From contig CALVVP010000080.1 of NCBI GenBank assembly GCA_944363895.1, positions 1 through 27,084 on the forward strand: a stretch of 27,084 bases of DNA. Direction: 5' to 3'. The notes under the pieces are model-generated. The model was given only the letters and a program-made list of their open reading frames with translations, ran no database searches and had not been told where the DNA came from. Positions within the stretch are counted from its first letter, which is position 1. Each line of letters begins with the position of its first letter. Source of the DNA: an uncultured Bacilli bacterium (GTDB lineage Bacteria; Bacillota_I; Bacilli_A; RF39; UBA660). The position numbers were made by a program, and so were the translations under genes. Shown piece after piece: positions 6,301 to 24,346 of the stretch.

Positions 6301-7968
6301 GAAGATATAAAAACTAAAAGAATTATCTCTAAAGAAATTGTTACTTCTTTAGAAATAATGCCTAATGAAGAAGTCGAGCTAGCATTTACTTTAGGAACAG
6401 TTGCTGATGATAAAGACTTAAATAAGTATAATTCAATTGAACAAATTAAATTAGAAGAAAGAAAAGTTACGAAATATTGGCAAGATATGTTAGAAATTAT
6501 CCAAGTAAAAACTGGCAACGATAGTTTTGATTATCTACTTAATGGTTGGTTAACTTATCAAGCCATAGTATCGCGACTTTATGCGAAAGCAGGATTTTAT
6601 CAAGTTGGGGGAGCTTATGGTTATCGCGACCAATTACAAGATAGTATGAATATTTGTATAATTCATCCAGAAATCACTAAAAACCAAATTTTATTTAATG
6701 CAATGCATCAATTTAAAGAAGGCGATGTTTTACATTGGTGGCATAAGGAAACTAAAATCGGTTTAAGATCAAAATATAAAGATGATTATTTATGGTTAGT
6801 TTATGCAACGAGTGAATACCTTAATGTCACTGATGATTATAAAATATTAGATGAACAAATTTGCTTTGTCGATGGACCAATTCTTACAAATGAAGAAATG
6901 GAAAAAGGCATCGAATATAGCTATACTGAAAAAAAAGCTACGCTTTATGAACACTGTCTATTGGCTTTACAATTAGCTAAAAAAGAAATTGGCGCAAATG
7001 GTTTACCACTAATTAGAGGTGGTGACTGGAATGACGGTATGAATAAAGTAGGGGAAAAAGGGCAAGGAACTAGCGTTTGGTTAGGATTCTTCTTATACCA
7101 AGTAATCGATAATTTTATTAATTTTACAAAAAAATATAATAAAAATATTAAAACTGATGAATGGGAAGAATTAAAAGATAATTTAGCTAAAGCTTTAAAA
7201 AAATGTTGGGATACTGACCATTATTTAAGAGCATTTTTTGATAATGGTGAAAAGTTAGGTTCTAATGATAACTTAGAATGTAAAATTGATTTAATTTCTC
7301 AAAGTTTTGCTATCCTTTCTGGTCTTGCTAGCGATGAAGAAACTAAAGATATTCTAAATGCTGTGGATAAATACTTATTTGATAAAAACTTAAAAATTGT
7401 CAAATTGTTAGATCCGGCTTTTGAAAAATCGAAAAATAATCCAGGATATATTATGAATTATCCTAAAGGAATTAGAGAAAATGGTGGTCAATATACTCAT
7501 GCTGTTGCTTGGTATATCGAAGCTTTAATTAAAACAGGTAATTATAATTTAGCTTATGAAATCTTTCAAATGATTAATCCAATTGAAAGAACTAAAAATA
7601 AAAACGATACCGATATCTATCAATTAGAACCATTTGTTATTGCTGCCGATATTTATAGTAATGATAATTTTAAAGCTAAAGGCGGATGGAGTTGGTATAC
7701 TGGTAGTGCGGGATGGTTTTATCGCGTTGGTTTAATCGATATTTTAGGTTTCGATAAAAAAGGCGATAAATTATATATTAAACCCCATTTACCAAATGAT
7801 TGGCCACAATATGAAATTACTTATAAATTTCAAAATACAACTTATCATATAACAGTAATAAATAGTAACAAAAATAGTATTACTGTGGATAAAAAAATGA
7901 TTAAAAATAATTATATTCCTTTAATTGATGATAATAAAACTCATGAAGTTGTCGTTAGGAGGTTGTAA
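355..7968 (+). CDS. Cyclic beta-1,2-glucan synthase (Cgs/NdvB)-like multidomain membrane protein: GT84 glycosyltransferase, ~6 TM segments, central glucoamylase-like (GH144/GH189-type) domain, C-terminal GH94 phosphorylase; 2537 aa
   Basis: TTG start after AGGAAGTAGGG. Motifs: GFERKRG (1777-1797), VITLDVDTQL, SHDLLEG, RRSRWARGDMQ; three paired hydrophobic stretches; SWSGTSFEYFMP, PWGISESAY, FAHHQGM; GFYQVGGAYGYRDQLQD, HWWH, GGDWNDGMN, RENGGQYTH, GGWSWYTGSAGW. Confidence 0.88.
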   Translation: MKTKNDLKIITKHYNNLIKLTKQHYFIGITNEWIIDNYYLIVEKANRIKQFYKNKKESQYLDKNVNLINILEHILEFRNYRIDEISLINNIKDYCKENNIHLNYQEIKIIPNALAIVLINRLSEICQKERIKLKEKAIIDRIVKKMPKDGKIKSLENYLPNNFLTSSSMIVFFNDKIKNFGNSANSIFKQLNNYLEKNNISLRKTINKEHLNNTNDNILIANIFYSIKEIENIDIENLNEALCHVEKILHNDPYYTMMTLETKNLYRKQLIKLAKKRKQNIEDLANELIKIDKNIGDLLFAQKDIKFKTFIYLFLIIFFSTLLTIILSYYFIPNKWLGFFILIIPVSEIVITFLNKIYLKIYPPKPLAKLDFEKGIPKNYKTMVVIPTILKNKEKVEEVFNKLESYYLANKSKNIYFTLLGDACECNQEKYAKDEEIKKAGLLKAGELNKKYHEEIFYFAYRKRIYSESEESFLGFERKRGALLHFNDLILNNLSEEEENKFFQIHTFHNFKHKIKYVITLDVDTQLVLNSALKLVGTMAHPINKPILNEEQTKVIKGYGILQPKISVDVESTNKSLFSQIYAGIGGLDPYSTIVPNFYQDVFKEGSFIGKGIYDLEIYQKVLKGRFPNQLILSHDLLEGNYLRCGVVSDVELIDDFPSKFLVDATRRSRWARGDMQIINWIFSKVRNEKQEKYHNPINALGKFKIIDNIRRSLLDFSLLLILICLSICTVHPYWWLLFILFIVILPVISYIIQLFTIQDKNSKNLKYYNIMVFGYQAFILRTVSVFTNIPYNAYLYVKAFIIAIYRITISKKHLLQWMTAEDADKQVKTTLTNHLKQFWINYIAAILFIVLGLASKYPIECIIIAIFFIIAPFLAYAISDDIKKNNHKLKKDEQEYLTNIARLTWKFFKENIKEENNYLICDNYQLNRDKKEDYKTSPTNIGLSLIAILSAYELNFISKKETVDYFNKIINTVEKLPKWHGHLYNWYKINTLEVIYPHFISTVDSGNFVASLITIKEFLKTIKEDKLANKIIKLIQETDFSKLYSQNEVFSIGYNVDEGILEPYNYNKFASESRITSYIAIAKGDVTSKHWFNLDKTLTTYKRKKGLVSWSGTSFEYFMPLIFIPTYDNTLIDESYDFAFYAQKEFMKEVNRKYPWGISESAYNELDDAQNYKYKAFATPYLKLQEEANNRIVISPYSSILALPLFPDDVLSNMKKLEKLKLVGKYGFYESYDADDEAVVYSYFAHHQGMILGSITNTLKNNIMQKYFMDDINNHAFEILNKEKVQLKPIIDVNITKYKKYTYEKETFINDIRVFHQLATLPEVSVLSNSKYSVFMNDRGNGFSRYRTIQLNRYRKITEQDYGIFLYIKDINTNDIWCNTYAPINKMPEKYEVVFALDKIKFIRLDHNIITTTEVVVAKTHHAEIRKVTFKNLSDQTKTLELTTYTEPILSENMDDISHKAFQNLFVQSEYEEKTNSIIMHRKLRDKDITYYMVNRLLIDEDSNYSYETNRYNFIGRNRSGANPIALEQKLTNTIGTCIDPIISLRSQITIKGNSEKTVYLINGFGKSKEQVLEIVSVFSNPEQIFEKAFEVATIMNNVTNKMVDITGHDMRLYNTMLNYLYQTSHISVNKERTKILKNNTLNQTGLWKFGISGDRPIVFLEVENLDNLSLVKELLHTFEYYKSKSIFIDLIILNSKDEQDKKIINEEIDNEKYRMYALNSFNKTPGNIYIINPSDVTLEEITLFKTAARINIDSKKYHSLEEFVLSLQKLNTVSRKETVKKENTQFNYDKKLKFYNTYGGFNNDGKKYIITNPDTPLIWCNILANKNFGSIVSNNQIGFTYALNSREYKLTSWSNDPLLANSSEGIKINDVHLKYQVAEVSFGKMRFLGSWKNFDFDLKQFVAYDDPIKFYYLKIKNNNKTKQKLNLKYWINPCLGVTEEKTSRYILSEYKKEKNCVLLKNKYSQHFSNISTFMGCTLPIEDIKTKRIISKEIVTSLEIMPNEEVELAFTLGTVADDKDLNKYNSIEQIKLEERKVTKYWQDMLEIIQVKTGNDSFDYLLNGWLTYQAIVSRLYAKAGFYQVGGAYGYRDQLQDSMNICIIHPEITKNQILFNAMHQFKEGDVLHWWHKETKIGLRSKYKDDYLWLVYATSEYLNVTDDYKILDEQICFVDGPILTNEEMEKGIEYSYTEKKATLYEHCLLALQLAKKEIGANGLPLIRGGDWNDGMNKVGEKGQGTSVWLGFFLYQVIDNFINFTKKYNKNIKTDEWEELKDNLAKALKKCWDTDHYLRAFFDNGEKLGSNDNLECKIDLISQSFAILSGLASDEETKDILNAVDKYLFDKNLKIVKLLDPAFEKSKNNPGYIMNYPKGIRENGGQYTHAVAWYIEALIKTGNYNLAYEIFQMINPIERTKNKNDTDIYQLEPFVIAADIYSNDNFKAKGGWSWYTGSAGWFYRVGLIDILGFDKKGDKLYIKPHLPNDWPQYEITYKFQNTTYHITVINSNKNSITVDKKMIKNNYIPLIDDNKTHEVVVRRL

Positions 7969-17739: not shown

Positions 17740-17915
17740 TTTTCCACATTTTTAAAAGTTATCCACATTTTTATTAACATATGTGGATAAAATTATTAAC
17801 ATTTTTTAGACAAAGTTGATAAAGTTATCCACAAAAAAGTGGATAACTACTATTTTTTAATAAATAAAAGTAATTTTCCCTGTGGATTTTTATTTTTTTT
17901 TAATATTTTTCCACA
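17740..17915. promoter_or_regulatory. oriC part 1: DnaA-box cluster upstream of dnaA
   Basis: TTTTCCACA 17740 and 17907; TTATCCACA 17759 and 17825; TGTGGATAA 17782; AGTGGATAA 17838 (1 mismatch); weaker TTATTAACA 17771 and 17793, AGTTGATAA 17814, TGTGGATTT 17881. Confidence 0.93.
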
Positions 17916-17976
17916 TTTTTGTAGCGTTTTTTAAGAAAATAAGGTAGAATATATATGAAACAAAGTGGGTGATATT

Positions 17977-19341
17977 GTGGATATAAATAGTATATGGAAT
18001 TCTTTTTTAGAAAAAATTCAAAATAGTTTAACGCCAGTATTATATGATATGTGGTTTTCAGAAACAAAATTAATTGAACTTACTGAAGAATATGCTAAAA
18101 TATTAGTACCAATGTCACTTCATAAAAAACATTTAAGAGAAAACTACATTGATTTAATTGATAAAACTTTTACTGAAGTAACTGGTTCAATCTTTAAATT
18201 TGAATTTGTAACAGAAGATGATTTAAATAATGAAACCATTATTGATATCGATGAAATTGGTGTTCCAGAAAATGCTACTTTTCAATCAAACCTTGACCCT
18301 AAATATACTTTTGAAAACTTTATTTCCGGAGCTAGTAATAAATTTGCTAAAGCTACAGCTTTAGCTGTTGCAGAACAGCCAGGAAGTATGTATAATCCAT
18401 TATTTATATATGGAAAAAGTGGACTAGGTAAAACTCACTTAATGCATGCCATCGGTAATTATATAAAAGAAAATAGTCGCAAAAAAGTATTATATGTAAC
18501 AACAGATACTTTCGTCAATGATTTTTTAAAAATTTACCGTAAAAATGAAAATGATAGCAATTTTGAAACAATTGATACTTTTAAAGAAAAATATCGAAAT
18601 GTTGATGTTTTAATGATCGATGATATCCAATATTTAGAAATTGCTCATAAAACGCAACAAGAATTCTTTAATACTTTTAATGATTTATATACAAATAATA
18701 AACAAATTGTCATTGCCTCTGATCGATCACCAGATGATTTAAAAAAATTAGAAGAAAGATTAAGAACTCGATTTGTTTGGGGATTGATTGTCGATATTCT
18801 TCCACCTGATTATCAATTAAGAATGAATATTATTGATAATAAAATCGATGGAAATAACATGAATACTTTTTTTCCACAGGATGTCAAAGAATATATTGCC
18901 AACAATTGCACTAGTGATATTCGCAAACTAGAAGGAGCCATTACGCGAATTATCGCTTATGCCACAATCATGAATGGTTCCGATATTACATTAGATTTAG
19001 CTATGGATGCTTTAAAAGATTATTTTGGAACAACAACTATTTCAAAAAATAAAATTGAACAAGTTCAACAAATTATTGCTAATAATTATAATATTAGTAT
19101 TGAAGATTTAAAAGGTAAAAGAAAATCTAATGATATCACAATTCCAAGACAAATTGCTATGTATATTTGCCGAGTCTATTTGAAAGAATCACTTCCCCGT
19201 ATCGGATCAGAATTTGGGGGAAAAGATCATACTACAGTCATGCATGCAGTCAACAAAATAAAAAAAGAAGTAGAAAATAATGATGAACTTAATATTGAAA
19301 TTAACAAAGTTCTTAATCAATTACCGTGGATAACTAAATAA
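17977..19341 (+). CDS. dnaA: Chromosomal replication initiator DnaA
   Basis: Walker A GKSGLGKTH, Walker B LMIDDIQ, RLRTRF, DIRKLEGA, GGKDHTTVMHA. GTG 17977 preferred over 17965 because AAGTGGGTGAT is at RBS spacing. Confidence 0.98.
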   Translation: MDINSIWNSFLEKIQNSLTPVLYDMWFSETKLIELTEEYAKILVPMSLHKKHLRENYIDLIDKTFTEVTGSIFKFEFVTEDDLNNETIIDIDEIGVPENATFQSNLDPKYTFENFISGASNKFAKATALAVAEQPGSMYNPLFIYGKSGLGKTHLMHAIGNYIKENSRKKVLYVTTDTFVNDFLKIYRKNENDSNFETIDTFKEKYRNVDVLMIDDIQYLEIAHKTQQEFFNTFNDLYTNNKQIVIASDRSPDDLKKLEERLRTRFVWGLIVDILPPDYQLRMNIIDNKIDGNNMNTFFPQDVKEYIANNCTSDIRKLEGAITRIIAYATIMNGSDITLDLAMDALKDYFGTTTISKNKIEQVQQIIANNYNISIEDLKGKRKSNDITIPRQIAMYICRVYLKESLPRIGSEFGGKDHTTVMHAVNKIKKEVENNDELNIEINKVLNQLPWITK

Positions 19342-19445
19342 AATCCCCATATTATCCACTATGGGAAATAATAGTAAATACAATCTTTTATTAAAGTTTT
19401 CCACATTATCCACATCGATAATAATAACAATATATATATTTATAA
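19325..19445. promoter_or_regulatory. oriC part 2: DnaA boxes and probable DNA unwinding element between dnaA and dnaN
   Basis: CGTGGATAA 19325 (inside the last dnaA codons), TTATCCACT 19352, abutting TTTTCCACA 19397 and TTATCCACA 19406, then ATAATAATAACAATATATATATTTATA. Confidence 0.88.
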
Positions 19446-19462
19446 AAAAAGGAGCTGAATTT

Positions 19463-20584
19463 ATGAATTTTAAAATAAAAAAAGAAAATTTGATGAAACA
19501 TTTAAATTTTGTTATTAAAGGTATATCAAATAAAAACATTAGACCAATATTAAATTGTATAAAATTTGAATTAAAACCGGAAGGTTTATATTTATCAAGT
19601 ACAGATAATGATATTGCAATTAGAACTTTTATTACTAATAAAGAAATAGAAGAAGATTATAACTGTGGAAAATTTGCTGTATCAGGAAAATATATTTATG
19701 ATATTATTAGAAAATTACCTAATGAAATTATTACAATCGAAGAAGTAATGGATTCTAAAATATACATTTCCACAACTAATATTTCCTTTTCTCTTAATTG
19801 CAATAATGTTGAAGAATTTCCTAATTTAGAATTAGAAGAAAGTAAAACGCCAATTATCTTAAGTAATAAAGTTTTAAAAAATATATTTAATCAAACCGCT
19901 TTTGCTGCTTCGACGCAAGAATCACGACCAGCGATTACTGGTATTAATTTTAAAATCAATAAAAATATCTTAGAGTGTACAGCTACTGATTCTTATCGTT
20001 TAGCTAAAAAAATTATTAATTTAAATCAAAATATTGAAGATGATGTTAATATTATTATTCCGACTAAAAATTTAATTGAATTATCGCGGATGTTTAATGA
20101 TGAAGAAGAAATGGTTGAAATTCATATTTTTAACAATAAAATAATCTTTAAATTTGGTACTATTATAATGTTATCACGGTTGATAAATGGTAATTATCCG
20201 GATGTTTCTAAGTTAATTCCTACCGAATTTTTATTAAAAATTACAGTATCAACTAGTGAGTTTTATGCTTTACTTGATCGAGTATCACTTTTTTCCACAG
20301 AAGAGGAAAAAAATACGATTAAATTAGAATGTAATGATAACATGATGGTTGTTTCATCAAATATTCCAGAAATAGGAAATGTTGTGGAAAAGTTAGAAAT
20401 CGAAAAAAATAATCAAGAAAATATAAAAATAGCTTTTTCTTCTAAATATATGATGGATGCTATTAAAGTATTGGATTGTGAAAAAATCGAACTTGCTTTT
20501 AATGGTGAAATTAAACCAATTATTATCAAAAATCCTGAGGATGAAAATTTAATTCAATTAATTGTTCCAATCAAAACTTATTAA
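19463..20584 (+). CDS. dnaN: DNA polymerase III beta sliding clamp
   Basis: ISNKNIRPILNCI, STQESRPAITG, ATDSYRLA, SRLINGNYPD, IAFSSKYMMDA, LIVPIKT. Start ATG 19463 after AGGAG (373 aa); the ORF-track start at 19361 runs through oriC. Confidence 0.97.
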   Translation: MNFKIKKENLMKHLNFVIKGISNKNIRPILNCIKFELKPEGLYLSSTDNDIAIRTFITNKEIEEDYNCGKFAVSGKYIYDIIRKLPNEIITIEEVMDSKIYISTTNISFSLNCNNVEEFPNLELEESKTPIILSNKVLKNIFNQTAFAASTQESRPAITGINFKINKNILECTATDSYRLAKKIINLNQNIEDDVNIIIPTKNLIELSRMFNDEEEMVEIHIFNNKIIFKFGTIIMLSRLINGNYPDVSKLIPTEFLLKITVSTSEFYALLDRVSLFSTEEEKNTIKLECNDNMMVVSSNIPEIGNVVEKLEIEKNNQENIKIAFSSKYMMDAIKVLDCEKIELAFNGEIKPIIIKNPEDENLIQLIVPIKTY

Positions 20585-20609
20585 AAATGCAAAAAAATGC
20601 ATTTTTTTT
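20583..20609 (+). terminator. Intrinsic terminator after dnaN
   Basis: AAAAATGCA-AAAAAA-TGCATTTTT followed by further T residues. Confidence 0.6.
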
Positions 20610-20614
20610 ATATT

Positions 20615-20641
20615 TTCGACAAAATTCGACAAATTTCGACA
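20615..20641. promoter_or_regulatory. Three tandem TTCGACA (= TGTCGAA, Spo0A box consensus TGNCGAA) sites at 10-bp period upstream of the comK-like gene
   Basis: TTCGACA at 20615, 20625 and 20635; followed by TG-A-TATAAG at 20651-20659 (imperfect extended -10). Confidence 0.7.
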
Positions 20642-20700
20642 ATATATCTGTGATATAAGAGTAATGCCATTTTTATTTGGTCAGGGAGGGAGGTAAATTG

Positions 20701-21171
20701 ATGTTTGATGAATATTATATTAATGATGATACATTATTGATTGTACCATTTGGAAAAAATAAATCTAAAATATACGATATAAATGGAACTTATATTGTAA
20801 AAAAGTCAGTATTTGAAATTGTCGATATTAGTTGTCAATATTATGGCAGTAGTTATTCTGGTAGATATATTGGTGCTAAAAATTTATTAGATATGGATTA
20901 TAAATTACCAATAATTGTCGATGAAGTCAAAGAAACAGTTATTTTTCCAACTTGTTCACCTAAATCAGATAGTTGTTGTTGGTTATGTGTGAATAATATC
21001 GATAATTATGAAAAATTAAAGAAAAATTCTAAAGTTAAATTTGTTAATGGCTTAACTTGTGAACTTAAAATATCGCTTAATTCTTTAGAAAATCAAATAA
21101 TGCGAGCAACGATGTTATTAATGCGATTAAAAAGAAGAAAAAATAGTCCTAAAAAAAGTGTAATAAAATAG
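20701..21171 (+). CDS. comK: ComK-family (competence transcription factor-like) protein, 156 aa
   Basis: YYINDDTLLIVP, IVDISCQYYGSSYSGR, YKLPII, IFPTCSP..DSCCWL, VKFVNG..ELKIS...LENQIMRA match the ComK family pattern. ATG 20701 after GGAGGGAGGT. Orthology to true ComK is not established. Confidence 0.8.
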   Translation: MFDEYYINDDTLLIVPFGKNKSKIYDINGTYIVKKSVFEIVDISCQYYGSSYSGRYIGAKNLLDMDYKLPIIVDEVKETVIFPTCSPKSDSCCWLCVNNIDNYEKLKKNSKVKFVNGLTCELKISLNSLENQIMRATMLLMRLKRRKNSPKKSVIK

Positions 21172-21197
21172 GTAATTTGCCTATTTTATTTGTTTTT
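21162..21197 (+). terminator. Intrinsic terminator after the comK-like gene
   Basis: AATAAAATAGG-TAATTTG-CCTATTTTATT (11-bp stem containing the stop codon) followed by TGTTTTT. Confidence 0.75.

Positions 21198-21297: not shown

Positions 21298-24346
<3,049 letters not shown>

What the first reader, a model, noticed from the sequence alone, without database searches (positions are those of the whole stretch)
20615..20659. Triple in-phase Spo0A boxes directly upstream of an origin-linked comK-like gene
Seen: three perfect TTCGACA copies at exactly 10-bp period, covering the -35 area of an imperfect extended -10, with no good -35 hexamer. Established: TGNCGAA is the Spo0A~P site, tandem boxes 3 bp apart (10-bp period) occur at Bacillus abrB, and Spo0A also binds the Bacillus comK promoter. 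Inference: a compact Spo0A-to-ComK-like switch wired next to oriC, where gene dosage oscillates with replication; possibly an undescribed developmental or competence circuit in this lineage.
Basis: partly seen in the sequence, partly recalled or inferred. Interest (0 to 1): 0.8.

Follow-up and report, generated by a model that had tools for sequence, protein, structure and literature searches.

The report
Spo0A-box promoter of origin-linked comK
Three evenly spaced copies of the binding motif of the sporulation master regulator Spo0A form the promoter of a comK competence-regulator gene next to the replication origin in an uncultured chicken-gut bacterium with a very small genome. The arrangement is conserved across its relatives, so it is a real and tidy variant of a regulatory link already known from Bacillus subtilis.

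Summary
Three perfect TTCGACA boxes (reverse complement of the 0A-box core TGTCGAA) lie at 20615, 20625 and 20635. They end 12 nt before an extended -10 (TGaTATAAG, 20651-20659), and there is no usable -35.

It is not chance. The three-box register is kept without indels in 22 related comK promoters. One subclade carries the array inverted and further upstream.

The Spo0A reading is well supported by comparison, though binding was not shown:
- Spo0A is present in 30/30 genus genomes, and the Spo0A of this genome has a conserved recognition helix.
- The same motif is conserved at the spo0A promoter, at a spoIIAA-like/sigF-like operon and, as a 2-3 box phased array, at an orphan histidine kinase.
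- In the seven sampled genomes of the order that have lost Spo0A, comK remains but box scores fall to background.

Box 2 places a -35-like hexamer 22 bp from the -10. By my recollection this is the spoIIG arrangement, so I favour activation by Spo0A~P. Repression is not excluded.

ComK is universal in the order (121/121) and usually sits between dnaN and recF. MecA was not found.

This is a new variant of a known kind: Spo0A acting directly on comK is described in B. subtilis. The gene-dosage idea is untested.

The parts
19361..20584 (+). dnaN (DNA polymerase III beta clamp), the gene upstream of the element
   Evidence: Pfam DNA_pol3_beta domains 1-3.
20583..20609 (+). AT-rich hairpin plus T-run, likely the dnaN terminator that insulates the comK promoter
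   Evidence: 9-bp stem, 6-nt loop, -7.2 kcal/mol. A hairpin with T-run precedes the boxes in most relatives. It was not flagged by the GC-biased scan.
20615..20621 (+). 0A box 1 (TTCGACA), about -51 to -45 if the -10 hexamer is taken as -12 to -7
20625..20631 (+). 0A box 2, about -41 to -35; its TCGACA is a 5/6 match to a -35 hexamer lying 22 bp from the -10
20635..20641 (+). 0A box 3, about -31 to -25, 12 nt before the -10
   Evidence: The gap is 12 nt in 21 of 26 relatives.
20651..20659 (+). Extended -10 (TG-a-TATAAG); TATAAGAG is conserved in relatives
   Evidence: columns nearly invariant.
20666..20681 (+). Small 5'-leader hairpin just before the ribosome-binding site
   Evidence: Predicted in 23 of 25 species at the same place, with different stem sequences. 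RNAalifold on a sequence alignment found nothing.
20686..20693 (+). Shine-Dalgarno (GGAGG ends 7 nt before the ATG)
20701..21171 (+). comK homologue (156 aa)
   Evidence: PF06338 at 133.7 bits, covering positions 2-151 of the 152-position profile. Relatives align from the ATG at 20701. A 224-nt metatranscriptome contig matches 20922-21145 exactly.
21162..21190 (+). comK terminator hairpin
   Evidence: 13-bp stem, -12.5 kcal/mol, followed by a T-run.
21298..22434 (+). recF, the downstream neighbour
   Evidence: SMC_N hit. dnaN-comK-recF synteny holds in 23 of 30 loci from other genera, one further locus having dnaN upstream with recF not in the fetched stretch.

Best explanation
The three boxes are a head-to-tail array of binding sites for phosphorylated Spo0A, and together they form the regulatory half of the comK promoter. 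The promoter has a good extended -10 but no -35 at 16-18 bp. Boxes 1 and 2 occupy about -51 to -35, box 3 fills -31 to -25, and the -35-like hexamer inside box 2 lies 22 bp from the -10.

I infer that Spo0A~P, bound on one face of the helix, recruits or repositions sigma-A RNA polymerase and switches comK on, as it does at spoIIG. The same promoter design drives an orphan histidine kinase, which would give positive feedback on Spo0A phosphorylation. The same motif also sits at spo0A itself and at the spoIIAA-like/sigF-like operon. comK would therefore belong to a small early Spo0A regulon.

Shown: the sequence anatomy, its conservation, the presence of Spo0A and the co-loss of boxes with Spo0A.
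Inferred: binding, the sign of regulation, the transcription start and what ComK controls.

I put about 0.85 on 'Spo0A site controlling comK' and about 0.6 on 'activation'.
For: 1. Motif identity. The boxes match the 7-bp 0A-box core TGTCGAA exactly, with 3-bp spacers. That spacing is reported for tandem 0A boxes at the phage Nf/phi29 A2c promoter (PMC2731898).
2. Conservation pattern. Information is highest at C3, G4 and C6 of TTCGACA, which correspond to the G5, C4 and G2 that Spo0A contacts (PMC3485338). It is lowest at the N position and in the spacers.
3. The factor. Spo0A is present in 30/30 genus genomes. In this genome's Spo0A the recognition helix reads SRVERSIRHAVEVSW, against SRVERAIRHAIEVAW in the solved structures 1LQ1 and 1FC3.
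4. Regulon. A conserved perfect box with two phased degenerate boxes lies upstream of spo0A. A perfect TGTCGAA lies 44 nt upstream of a STAS(SpoIIAA-like)-sigF-like-spoVAC operon and is kept in 21 of 26 genus genomes. Arrays of 2-3 phased boxes precede an orphan HisKA/HATPase kinase across the genus.
5. Register. The array is fixed relative to the -10: the gap is 12 nt in 21 of 26 comK promoters and 22 nt in 4.
6. Inverted subclade. Four genomes carry the array inverted, about 32 nt upstream of their -10, which would put it at about -71 to -45. This fits a protein-binding site placed upstream of the core promoter and fits activation better than occlusion.
7. Natural experiment. Seven of 121 genomes in the order lack Spo0A_C or keep only remnants. 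All keep comK, but their comK upstream regions score at background: mean two-box score 8.7 against 10.9, and CGACA present in 1/7 against 35/52.
8. Helix and box. Diverged Spo0A proteins that keep E-R-x-x-R keep CGACA boxes. Those with the last Arg replaced have altered or lost box cores.
9. Partner logic. Spo0A and the kinase are both orphans; of the other DNA-binding response regulators, two have a kinase gene nearby and two lie at contig ends.
Against: - No binding or expression data exist. The only RNA evidence is one 224-nt metatranscriptome contig inside comK, which could be DNA carry-over.
- Boxes overlapping the -35 region repress in other cases, for example R1 at B. subtilis PcomK (PMC3297582) and the phage A2c promoter (PMC2731898). 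An extended -10 promoter could also work without an activator.
- Outside the genus the arrays are often degenerate, and some Spo0A-positive genomes score at background.
- The Spo0A-loss events are few (about five lineages), and sporulation loss removes many genes together, so the co-loss is not specific to Spo0A.
- The altered TCTAC core in genus g48 is not enriched genome-wide, so the helix/box covariation is only suggestive.
- The spoIIG parallel rests on my recollection of the literature; I could not read the original papers here.
Confidence: 0.7

Rival explanations
1. The boxes do bind Spo0A~P, but to shut comK off. An activator-independent extended -10 promoter would be occluded when Spo0A~P fills -51 to -25, closing ComK expression once cells commit to sporulation.
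For: - Box 3 lies in the spacer between the -35 and -10 positions.
- Extended -10 promoters can work without a -35 (general knowledge).
- Tandem 0A boxes overlapping a core promoter repress at phage A2c (PMC2731898), and R1 overlapping the -35 represses B. subtilis PcomK (PMC3297582).
Against: - Box 3 is dispensable: many kinase promoters keep only the two boxes at about -50 to -34, with a 21-nt gap.
- One subclade places the comK array at about -71 to -45, where occlusion is unlikely.
- The same design drives the presumed Spo0A kinase, where positive feedback is the usual logic.
Confidence: 0.2
2. The direct repeats are sites for another regulator that binds 10-11 bp direct repeats, such as one of the OmpR-type response regulators in the genome, and only resemble 0A boxes.
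For: OmpR/PhoB-family regulators typically bind direct repeats at about one helical turn (general knowledge). Two or three such regulators are encoded.
Against: - The 7-mer equals the 0A consensus, not the WalR-type TGTWAH-N5-TGTWAH repeat.
- The same motif sits at spo0A and at the spoIIAA/sigF-like operon.
- The boxes vanish where Spo0A is lost, and the box core tracks the Spo0A recognition helix.
- At least one OmpR-type regulator has its own adjacent kinase.
Confidence: 0.07
3. The array mainly serves replication control. Spo0A~P bound beside oriC would damp initiation, as it does at 0A boxes in the B. subtilis origin, and the link to comK would be incidental.
For: The array lies 1.2 kb from a DnaA-box cluster at the dnaA-dnaN junction. 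Spo0A inhibition of replication at origin 0A boxes is cited in PMC2731898.
Against: - No DnaA boxes lie in 20585-20700.
- The array keeps a fixed register to the comK -10.
- The same design occurs at the kinase promoter on another contig.
- Where comK has moved away from dnaN, box-like repeats are still seen upstream of comK in some genomes (L128, L131).
Confidence: 0.03

Closest known systems
Spo0A~P control of the Bacillus subtilis comK promoter (Mirouze et al. 2012, PMC3297582)
   Same: The same two players and a direct link: Spo0A~P sites in the comK promoter region set when ComK is made.
   Different: B. subtilis has five scattered, imperfect boxes: three upstream activating sites that work against Rok, and two repressing sites, one of them on the -35. 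It also has ComK auto-activation and MecA-dependent proteolysis. Here there are three consensus boxes in strict 10-bp phase abutting the -10. MecA was not found. The gene sits between dnaN and recF.
Spo0A-activated sigma-A promoters spoIIG and spoIIE of B. subtilis (Satola 1992; Baldus 1994; recalled, not read here)
   Same: Sigma-A type -10, a -35-like hexamer about 21-22 bp away instead of 17, and tandem 0A boxes overlapping that hexamer at about -50 to -35.
   Different: The boxes here are perfect and there are three of them. The target gene is comK (and a kinase), not a sporulation sigma-factor operon. Activation is not shown.
Tandem 0A boxes separated by 3 bp at abrB and at the phage phi29/Nf A2c promoter (PMC2731898; PMC3485338)
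   Same: The same 7-bp core, the same 3-bp spacer and the same head-to-tail orientation. By my recollection this matches the tandem Spo0A arrangement in the co-crystal structure 1LQ1.
   Different: Those arrays hold two boxes and repress. This one holds three and is placed like an activator site.
Spo0A autoregulation and spoIIA control in Bacillus and Clostridioides (PMC12090719; PMC3485338)
   Same: 0A boxes upstream of spo0A and of the spoIIAA operon are also found and conserved in this genus.
   Different: None of note. These serve here as internal positive controls for the identity of the motif.

Membership tests
Spo0A binding site (0A box array) | Match to the core TGTCGAA / TGNCGAA | tested here: met
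   Three exact matches on the complementary strand. Conservation peaks at the bases Spo0A contacts (PMC3485338).
Spo0A binding site (0A box array) | Spo0A encoded, with its DNA-recognition helix intact | tested here: met
   Spo0A_C at 137.8 bits in this genome and present in 30/30 genus genomes. This genome's helix aligns to 1LQ1/1FC3 with E, R and R conserved.
Spo0A binding site (0A box array) | Same motif at hallmark Spo0A targets in the same organism (spo0A, spoIIA) | tested here: met
   Conserved boxes upstream of spo0A and of the STAS/sigF-like/spoVAC operon.
Spo0A binding site (0A box array) | Site depends on the presence of the factor across genomes | tested here: met
   The seven Spo0A-less genomes have background box scores. 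There are few independent losses, so the support is moderate.
Spo0A binding site (0A box array) | Physical binding by Spo0A~P and Spo0A-dependent transcription | not testable with these tools
   Needs EMSA or footprinting and reporter or in vitro transcription assays.
spoIIG-type activator-dependent sigma-A promoter | -35-like hexamer 21-22 bp from the -10, overlapped by tandem 0A boxes | tested here: met
   TCGACA at 20626-20631 lies 22 bp from TATAAG at 20654. The gap is 21 nt at the kinase promoters. The defining values are recalled, not read.
spoIIG-type activator-dependent sigma-A promoter | Stimulation by Spo0A~P | not testable with these tools
   No expression system is available here.
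ComK family transcription factor | Full-length ComK domain | tested here: met
   PF06338, E 5.7e-39, profile positions 2-151 of 152.
ComK family transcription factor | Bacillus-type control: MecA adaptor present | tested here: not met
   PF05389 was not found in 11 genus genomes, while the B. subtilis and Lactococcus controls were positive.
ComK family transcription factor | Controls DNA-uptake genes | not tested
   ComEC and a ComGA/PilB-type ATPase are present. K-boxes cannot be judged in a genome of 27% G+C.
DnaA box / oriC element | Match to TTATCCACA | tested here: not met
   With at most one mismatch there is no match in 20585-20700. The clusters lie at 17740-17984 and 19325-19414.
OmpR/WalR-type direct repeat | Hexamer repeat of the TGTWAH-N5-TGTWAH kind at 11-bp period | tested here: not met
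   The period is exactly 10 bp and the core is CGAC. The consensus is recalled.

The most novel reading that the evidence does not exclude
In this genome-reduced, uncultured order of gut Bacilli, ComK has become a core gene that is hard-wired, without MecA or Rok-type buffering, as a direct first-tier output of Spo0A~P. It would be driven from an activator-dependent promoter at the replication origin. Entry into the ComK state (DNA uptake or growth arrest) would then be an obligatory early branch of the sporulation decision, timed by origin-proximal copy number. Lineages that later lost Spo0A would have had to rebuild the comK promoter to keep the gene.
Probability: 0.3. Interest if true: 0.65.

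Novelty: new variant of a known kind. Interest (0 to 1): 0.5.

Why it matters
- It gives a very compact, consensus-built Spo0A-dependent promoter: three perfect boxes plus an extended -10, about 45 bp in all. This could serve as a clean model or a synthetic part for studying how Spo0A~P activates sigma-A polymerase.
- It outlines a small candidate Spo0A regulon (spo0A, an orphan kinase, spoIIAA/sigF, comK, a cold-shock gene) in bacteria with 1-Mb genomes that nobody has grown.
- It shows that ComK is universal in that order. I found no mention of this in the one paper on these orders that I read (PMC10868615 has no occurrence of 'comK' or 'competence'), nor any paper combining comK, dnaN, recF and Spo0A.
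- The lineages that lost Spo0A but kept comK are a ready-made comparative test of how a promoter is rewired when its activator disappears.

Tried and rejected
- **Leader hairpin.** RNAalifold on a MAFFT alignment of the comK leader predicted nothing. The sequence alignment puts the stems out of register. Per-sequence folding shows the hairpin, but I did not obtain a formal covariation statistic.
- **Kinase in diverged lineages.** I looked for the kinase orthologue in lineages with diverged Spo0A, to see whether a second promoter carries their altered box core. None was found at E <= 1e-10.
- **Altered box core in g48.** I searched g48 genomes for phased TCTAC arrays. Counts equal the reversed-pattern control, so coevolution of Spo0A helix and box remains a hint only.
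- **SpoIIE.** The model TIGR02865 was not found. The genome is 82% complete, and PMC10868615 reports frequent spoIIE absence in the related order ML615J-28, so this says little.
- **spoIIGA upstream region.** It has only a weak AACGACA, which is uninformative.
- **Metatranscriptomes.** Two runs gave one short contig in comK and one in dnaN, with no 5' ends.
- **spoIIG papers.** The original spoIIG promoter papers could not be read, so that comparison is from memory.
- **ComK auto-regulation rejected.** I considered ComK binding its own promoter at these boxes. I rejected it because ComK persists in the Spo0A-less genomes where the boxes are gone, and because the same boxes sit at spo0A and spoIIAA.
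- **Slippage repeat rejected.** I considered a neutral slippage repeat. I rejected it because the spacers vary while the box cores and the register to the -10 are held across species with 45-100% ComK identity.

Full report
**Where we are.** The window is contig C80 of a 0.99-Mb metagenome-assembled genome. It is 82% complete, has 27% G+C and comes in 115 contigs. Near-identical DNA occurs in chicken gut metagenomes, and relatives are deposited as uncultured Bacilli or 'Tenericutes' MAGs. The gene order is rpmH, then dnaA, dnaN, a 116-bp spacer, comK, recF, gyrB and gyrA. Canonical DnaA boxes cluster upstream of dnaA (17740-17984) and at the dnaA-dnaN junction (19325-19414). None lies in the dnaN-comK spacer.

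- Exact TTCGACA sits at 20615, 20625 and 20635.
- After 12 nt comes TG-a-TATAAG (20651-20659). No -35/-10 pair with a 16-18 bp spacer ends there.
- Upstream, a 9-bp AT-rich hairpin with a T-run (20583-20609) probably terminates dnaN. Downstream lie a small leader hairpin (20666-20681), a GGAGG and the ATG at 20701.
The genome holds 227 exact boxes, mostly in coding DNA.
- The phased arrangement is special, though. Every close same-orientation pair of exact boxes is spaced 10, 20 or 30 bp. Seven of the eight 10-bp box pairs found with at most one mismatch lie outside called ORFs.

**It is conserved, so it is functional.**
- A comK homologue follows dnaN in all 24 sampled genomes of the genus.
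- In 22 non-identical promoters with the conserved TATAAGAG -10 (ComK identity 46-100%), the three boxes align to that -10 without a single indel. Information peaks at C3, G4 and C6 of each box. It is lowest at position 5, in the spacers and in the 12 nt before the -10.
- The gap from the last exact box to the -10 is 12 nt in 21 of 26 promoters and 22 nt in 4.
- In four genomes of a deep subclade (ComK about 47% identical), two or three exact boxes (the third one mismatch off) are present in the opposite orientation. They lie about 32 nt upstream of a TG-extended -10. An element that survives inversion and relocation is a protein-binding site, not a slippage repeat.

**Why Spo0A.**
- The 7-mer is the reverse complement of TGTCGAA, the 0A-box core. 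Spo0A makes base contacts with G2, C4 and G5 (PMC3485338), and these are exactly the best-conserved positions here.
- Two 0A boxes separated by 3 bp are a known Spo0A site type (PMC2731898).
- Spo0A is encoded in this genome and in 30/30 genomes of the genus. In this genome its DNA-binding domain aligns over 115 residues to the solved Bacillus structures, with the recognition helix nearly unchanged.
- SpoIVA, SpoIIGA and a sporulation-type (SigF-like) sigma factor are also present, as is SpoVAC.

**The same motif marks other promoters.**
- The spo0A promoter carries one perfect box followed by two degenerate boxes in 10-bp phase. This is conserved in most genus genomes, even where the upstream gene differs.
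- An operon encoding a STAS (SpoIIAA-like) protein, a SigF-like sigma factor and SpoVAC has a perfect TGTCGAA 44 nt upstream. The box is kept in 21 of 26 genus genomes, and most of the remainder read TGTCGAT.
- An orphan membrane histidine kinase has the same promoter design as comK: a T-run, three boxes (two perfect, the third one mismatch off), 11 nt, then TATAAT. Two or three phased boxes are conserved across the genus.
- Spo0A and this kinase are both orphans. Of the other DNA-binding response regulators, one OmpR-type and the LytTR-type have a kinase gene nearby, and two OmpR-type genes lie at contig ends so their neighbours are not assembled.
- Further two-box arrays lie upstream of a second cold-shock gene (inverted, upstream of a normal -35) and of a 147-aa membrane protein.

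**A natural experiment.**
- ComK is present in 121 of 121 sampled genomes of the order, spanning 74 genera with genomes of 0.6-1.6 Mb.
- dnaN lies upstream of comK in 24 of 30 loci from other genera, with recF downstream in 23 of them. Many of these have phased CGACA repeats upstream.
- Spo0A_C is missing or reduced to remnants in seven of these genomes. All seven keep comK.
- Their comK upstream regions score like random upstream DNA: a mean two-box score of 8.7, against 10.9 in Spo0A-positive genomes. CGACA is present in 1 of 7 against 35 of 52, and the genome-wide background for gene upstream regions is 15%.
- Within one genus, the genome that keeps Spo0A_C keeps two boxes, while the genome with a wrecked helix has none.
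- Among diverged Spo0A proteins, those that keep E-R-x-x-R in the recognition helix keep CGACA boxes. Those with the last Arg replaced have TCTAC or CGCC cores, or nothing.
- This last point is only suggestive. TCTAC arrays are not enriched elsewhere in those genomes. The losses amount to about five events, and sporulation loss removes many genes at once.

**How it most likely works.**
- I number positions by taking the -10 hexamer as -12 to -7. The boxes then lie at -51/-45, -41/-35 and -31/-25.
- The TCGACA inside box 2 is a 5/6 match to a -35 hexamer, but it sits 22 bp from the -10. At the kinase promoters the equivalent gap is 21 nt, and the third box is often absent.
- As I recall the literature, this is the spoIIG/spoIIE arrangement. 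There, tandem 0A boxes overlap a mis-spaced -35 and Spo0A~P is required for sigma-A polymerase to initiate. I could not re-read those papers.
- Taken together with the inverted upstream arrays in one subclade, I favour activation at about 0.6.
- Repression by occlusion remains a serious rival, because overlapping boxes do repress at PcomK R1 and at phage A2c (PMC3297582, PMC2731898).
- The conserved leader hairpin close to the predicted 5' end may stabilise the mRNA. This is an inference only.

**What ComK does here is not shown.** ComEC and a ComGA/PilB-type ATPase exist. MecA was not found in 11 genus genomes, and this genome has only a SpoVT-sized AbrB-domain protein. ComK control therefore looks simpler than in B. 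subtilis. A 224-nt metatranscriptome contig matches comK exactly, which is weak evidence of expression.

**Comparison and novelty.**
- Direct Spo0A~P action at the comK promoter is known in B. subtilis, where it works through five imperfect scattered boxes and Rok (PMC3297582).
- Spo0A autoregulation and spoIIA control are classic.
- Sporulation gene content of the uncultured reduced Bacilli orders has been surveyed, without mention of ComK or competence (PMC10868615).
- No paper in the library combines comK, dnaN, recF and Spo0A.
- New here are the promoter design (three consensus boxes in phase replacing the -35), its use for both comK and an orphan kinase, the conserved dnaN-comK-recF position, the universality of ComK in the order and the loss of boxes with Spo0A.
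- I class this as a new variant of a known kind.
- The scan's own earlier notes on this window had flagged the comK slot and the DnaA boxes. I re-checked both.

Noticed in passing
window 20666-20681: A small hairpin lies between the -10 and the ribosome-binding site of comK. It is kept at the same place in 23 of 25 species, with different stem sequences (for example CCAAT/ATTGG, GCTAA/TTAGC, ACTTAG/CTAAGT). Other genera show a GAAAAC...GTTTTC version.
   Followed up: partly
order-wide; window 20701-21171: ComK is present in 121 of 121 sampled genomes of the order, including the smallest (0.6 Mb) and the Spo0A-less ones. MecA was not found in 11 genus genomes.
   Followed up: partly
G000:C50:2168-3183 (L118): The SpoIIAA-like STAS gene is followed after 12 nt by the SigF-like sigma gene and then spoVAC. 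No SpoIIAB-type anti-sigma kinase gene lies between them, and none was seen on that contig.
   Followed up: no
G000 contigs C79, C89, C63, C71 (L036, L038, L040, L043): There are two hybrid histidine kinases with receiver domains, plus REC-REC-Hpt and Hpt-REC proteins. This may be a phosphorelay of a non-Bacillus type in a 1-Mb genome.
   Followed up: no
G000:C58:560-640 and 6450-6546 (L032): A hairpin of about 80 nt followed by a four-box 0A array occurs twice on one 6.5-kb contig. The second copy runs into the contig end, so its target gene is unknown.
   Followed up: no
G000:C85:10966-10982 (L033): Two perfect TGTCGAA boxes at 10-bp spacing lie upstream of a normal -35/-10 promoter of a second cold-shock protein gene.
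   Followed up: partly
L161-L170 (Spo0A genes of other genera): In the smallest genomes of the family, Spo0A is diverging or decaying. The third Arg of the recognition helix is replaced by Ser, Cys, Ala or Lys in several lineages.
   Followed up: partly
window 19325-19414: dnaA and dnaN are only 19 nt apart. DnaA boxes lie across the junction and inside the first 50 nt of dnaN, so the second half of oriC seems to overlap coding DNA.
   Followed up: no
G000:C44:2526 and C84:1194 (L209, L210): Single perfect TGTCGAA boxes lie 6-8 nt upstream of a -10, before a 633-aa SH3-domain protein gene and a 388-aa gene with no Pfam match. These are placed like repressor sites.
   Followed up: no
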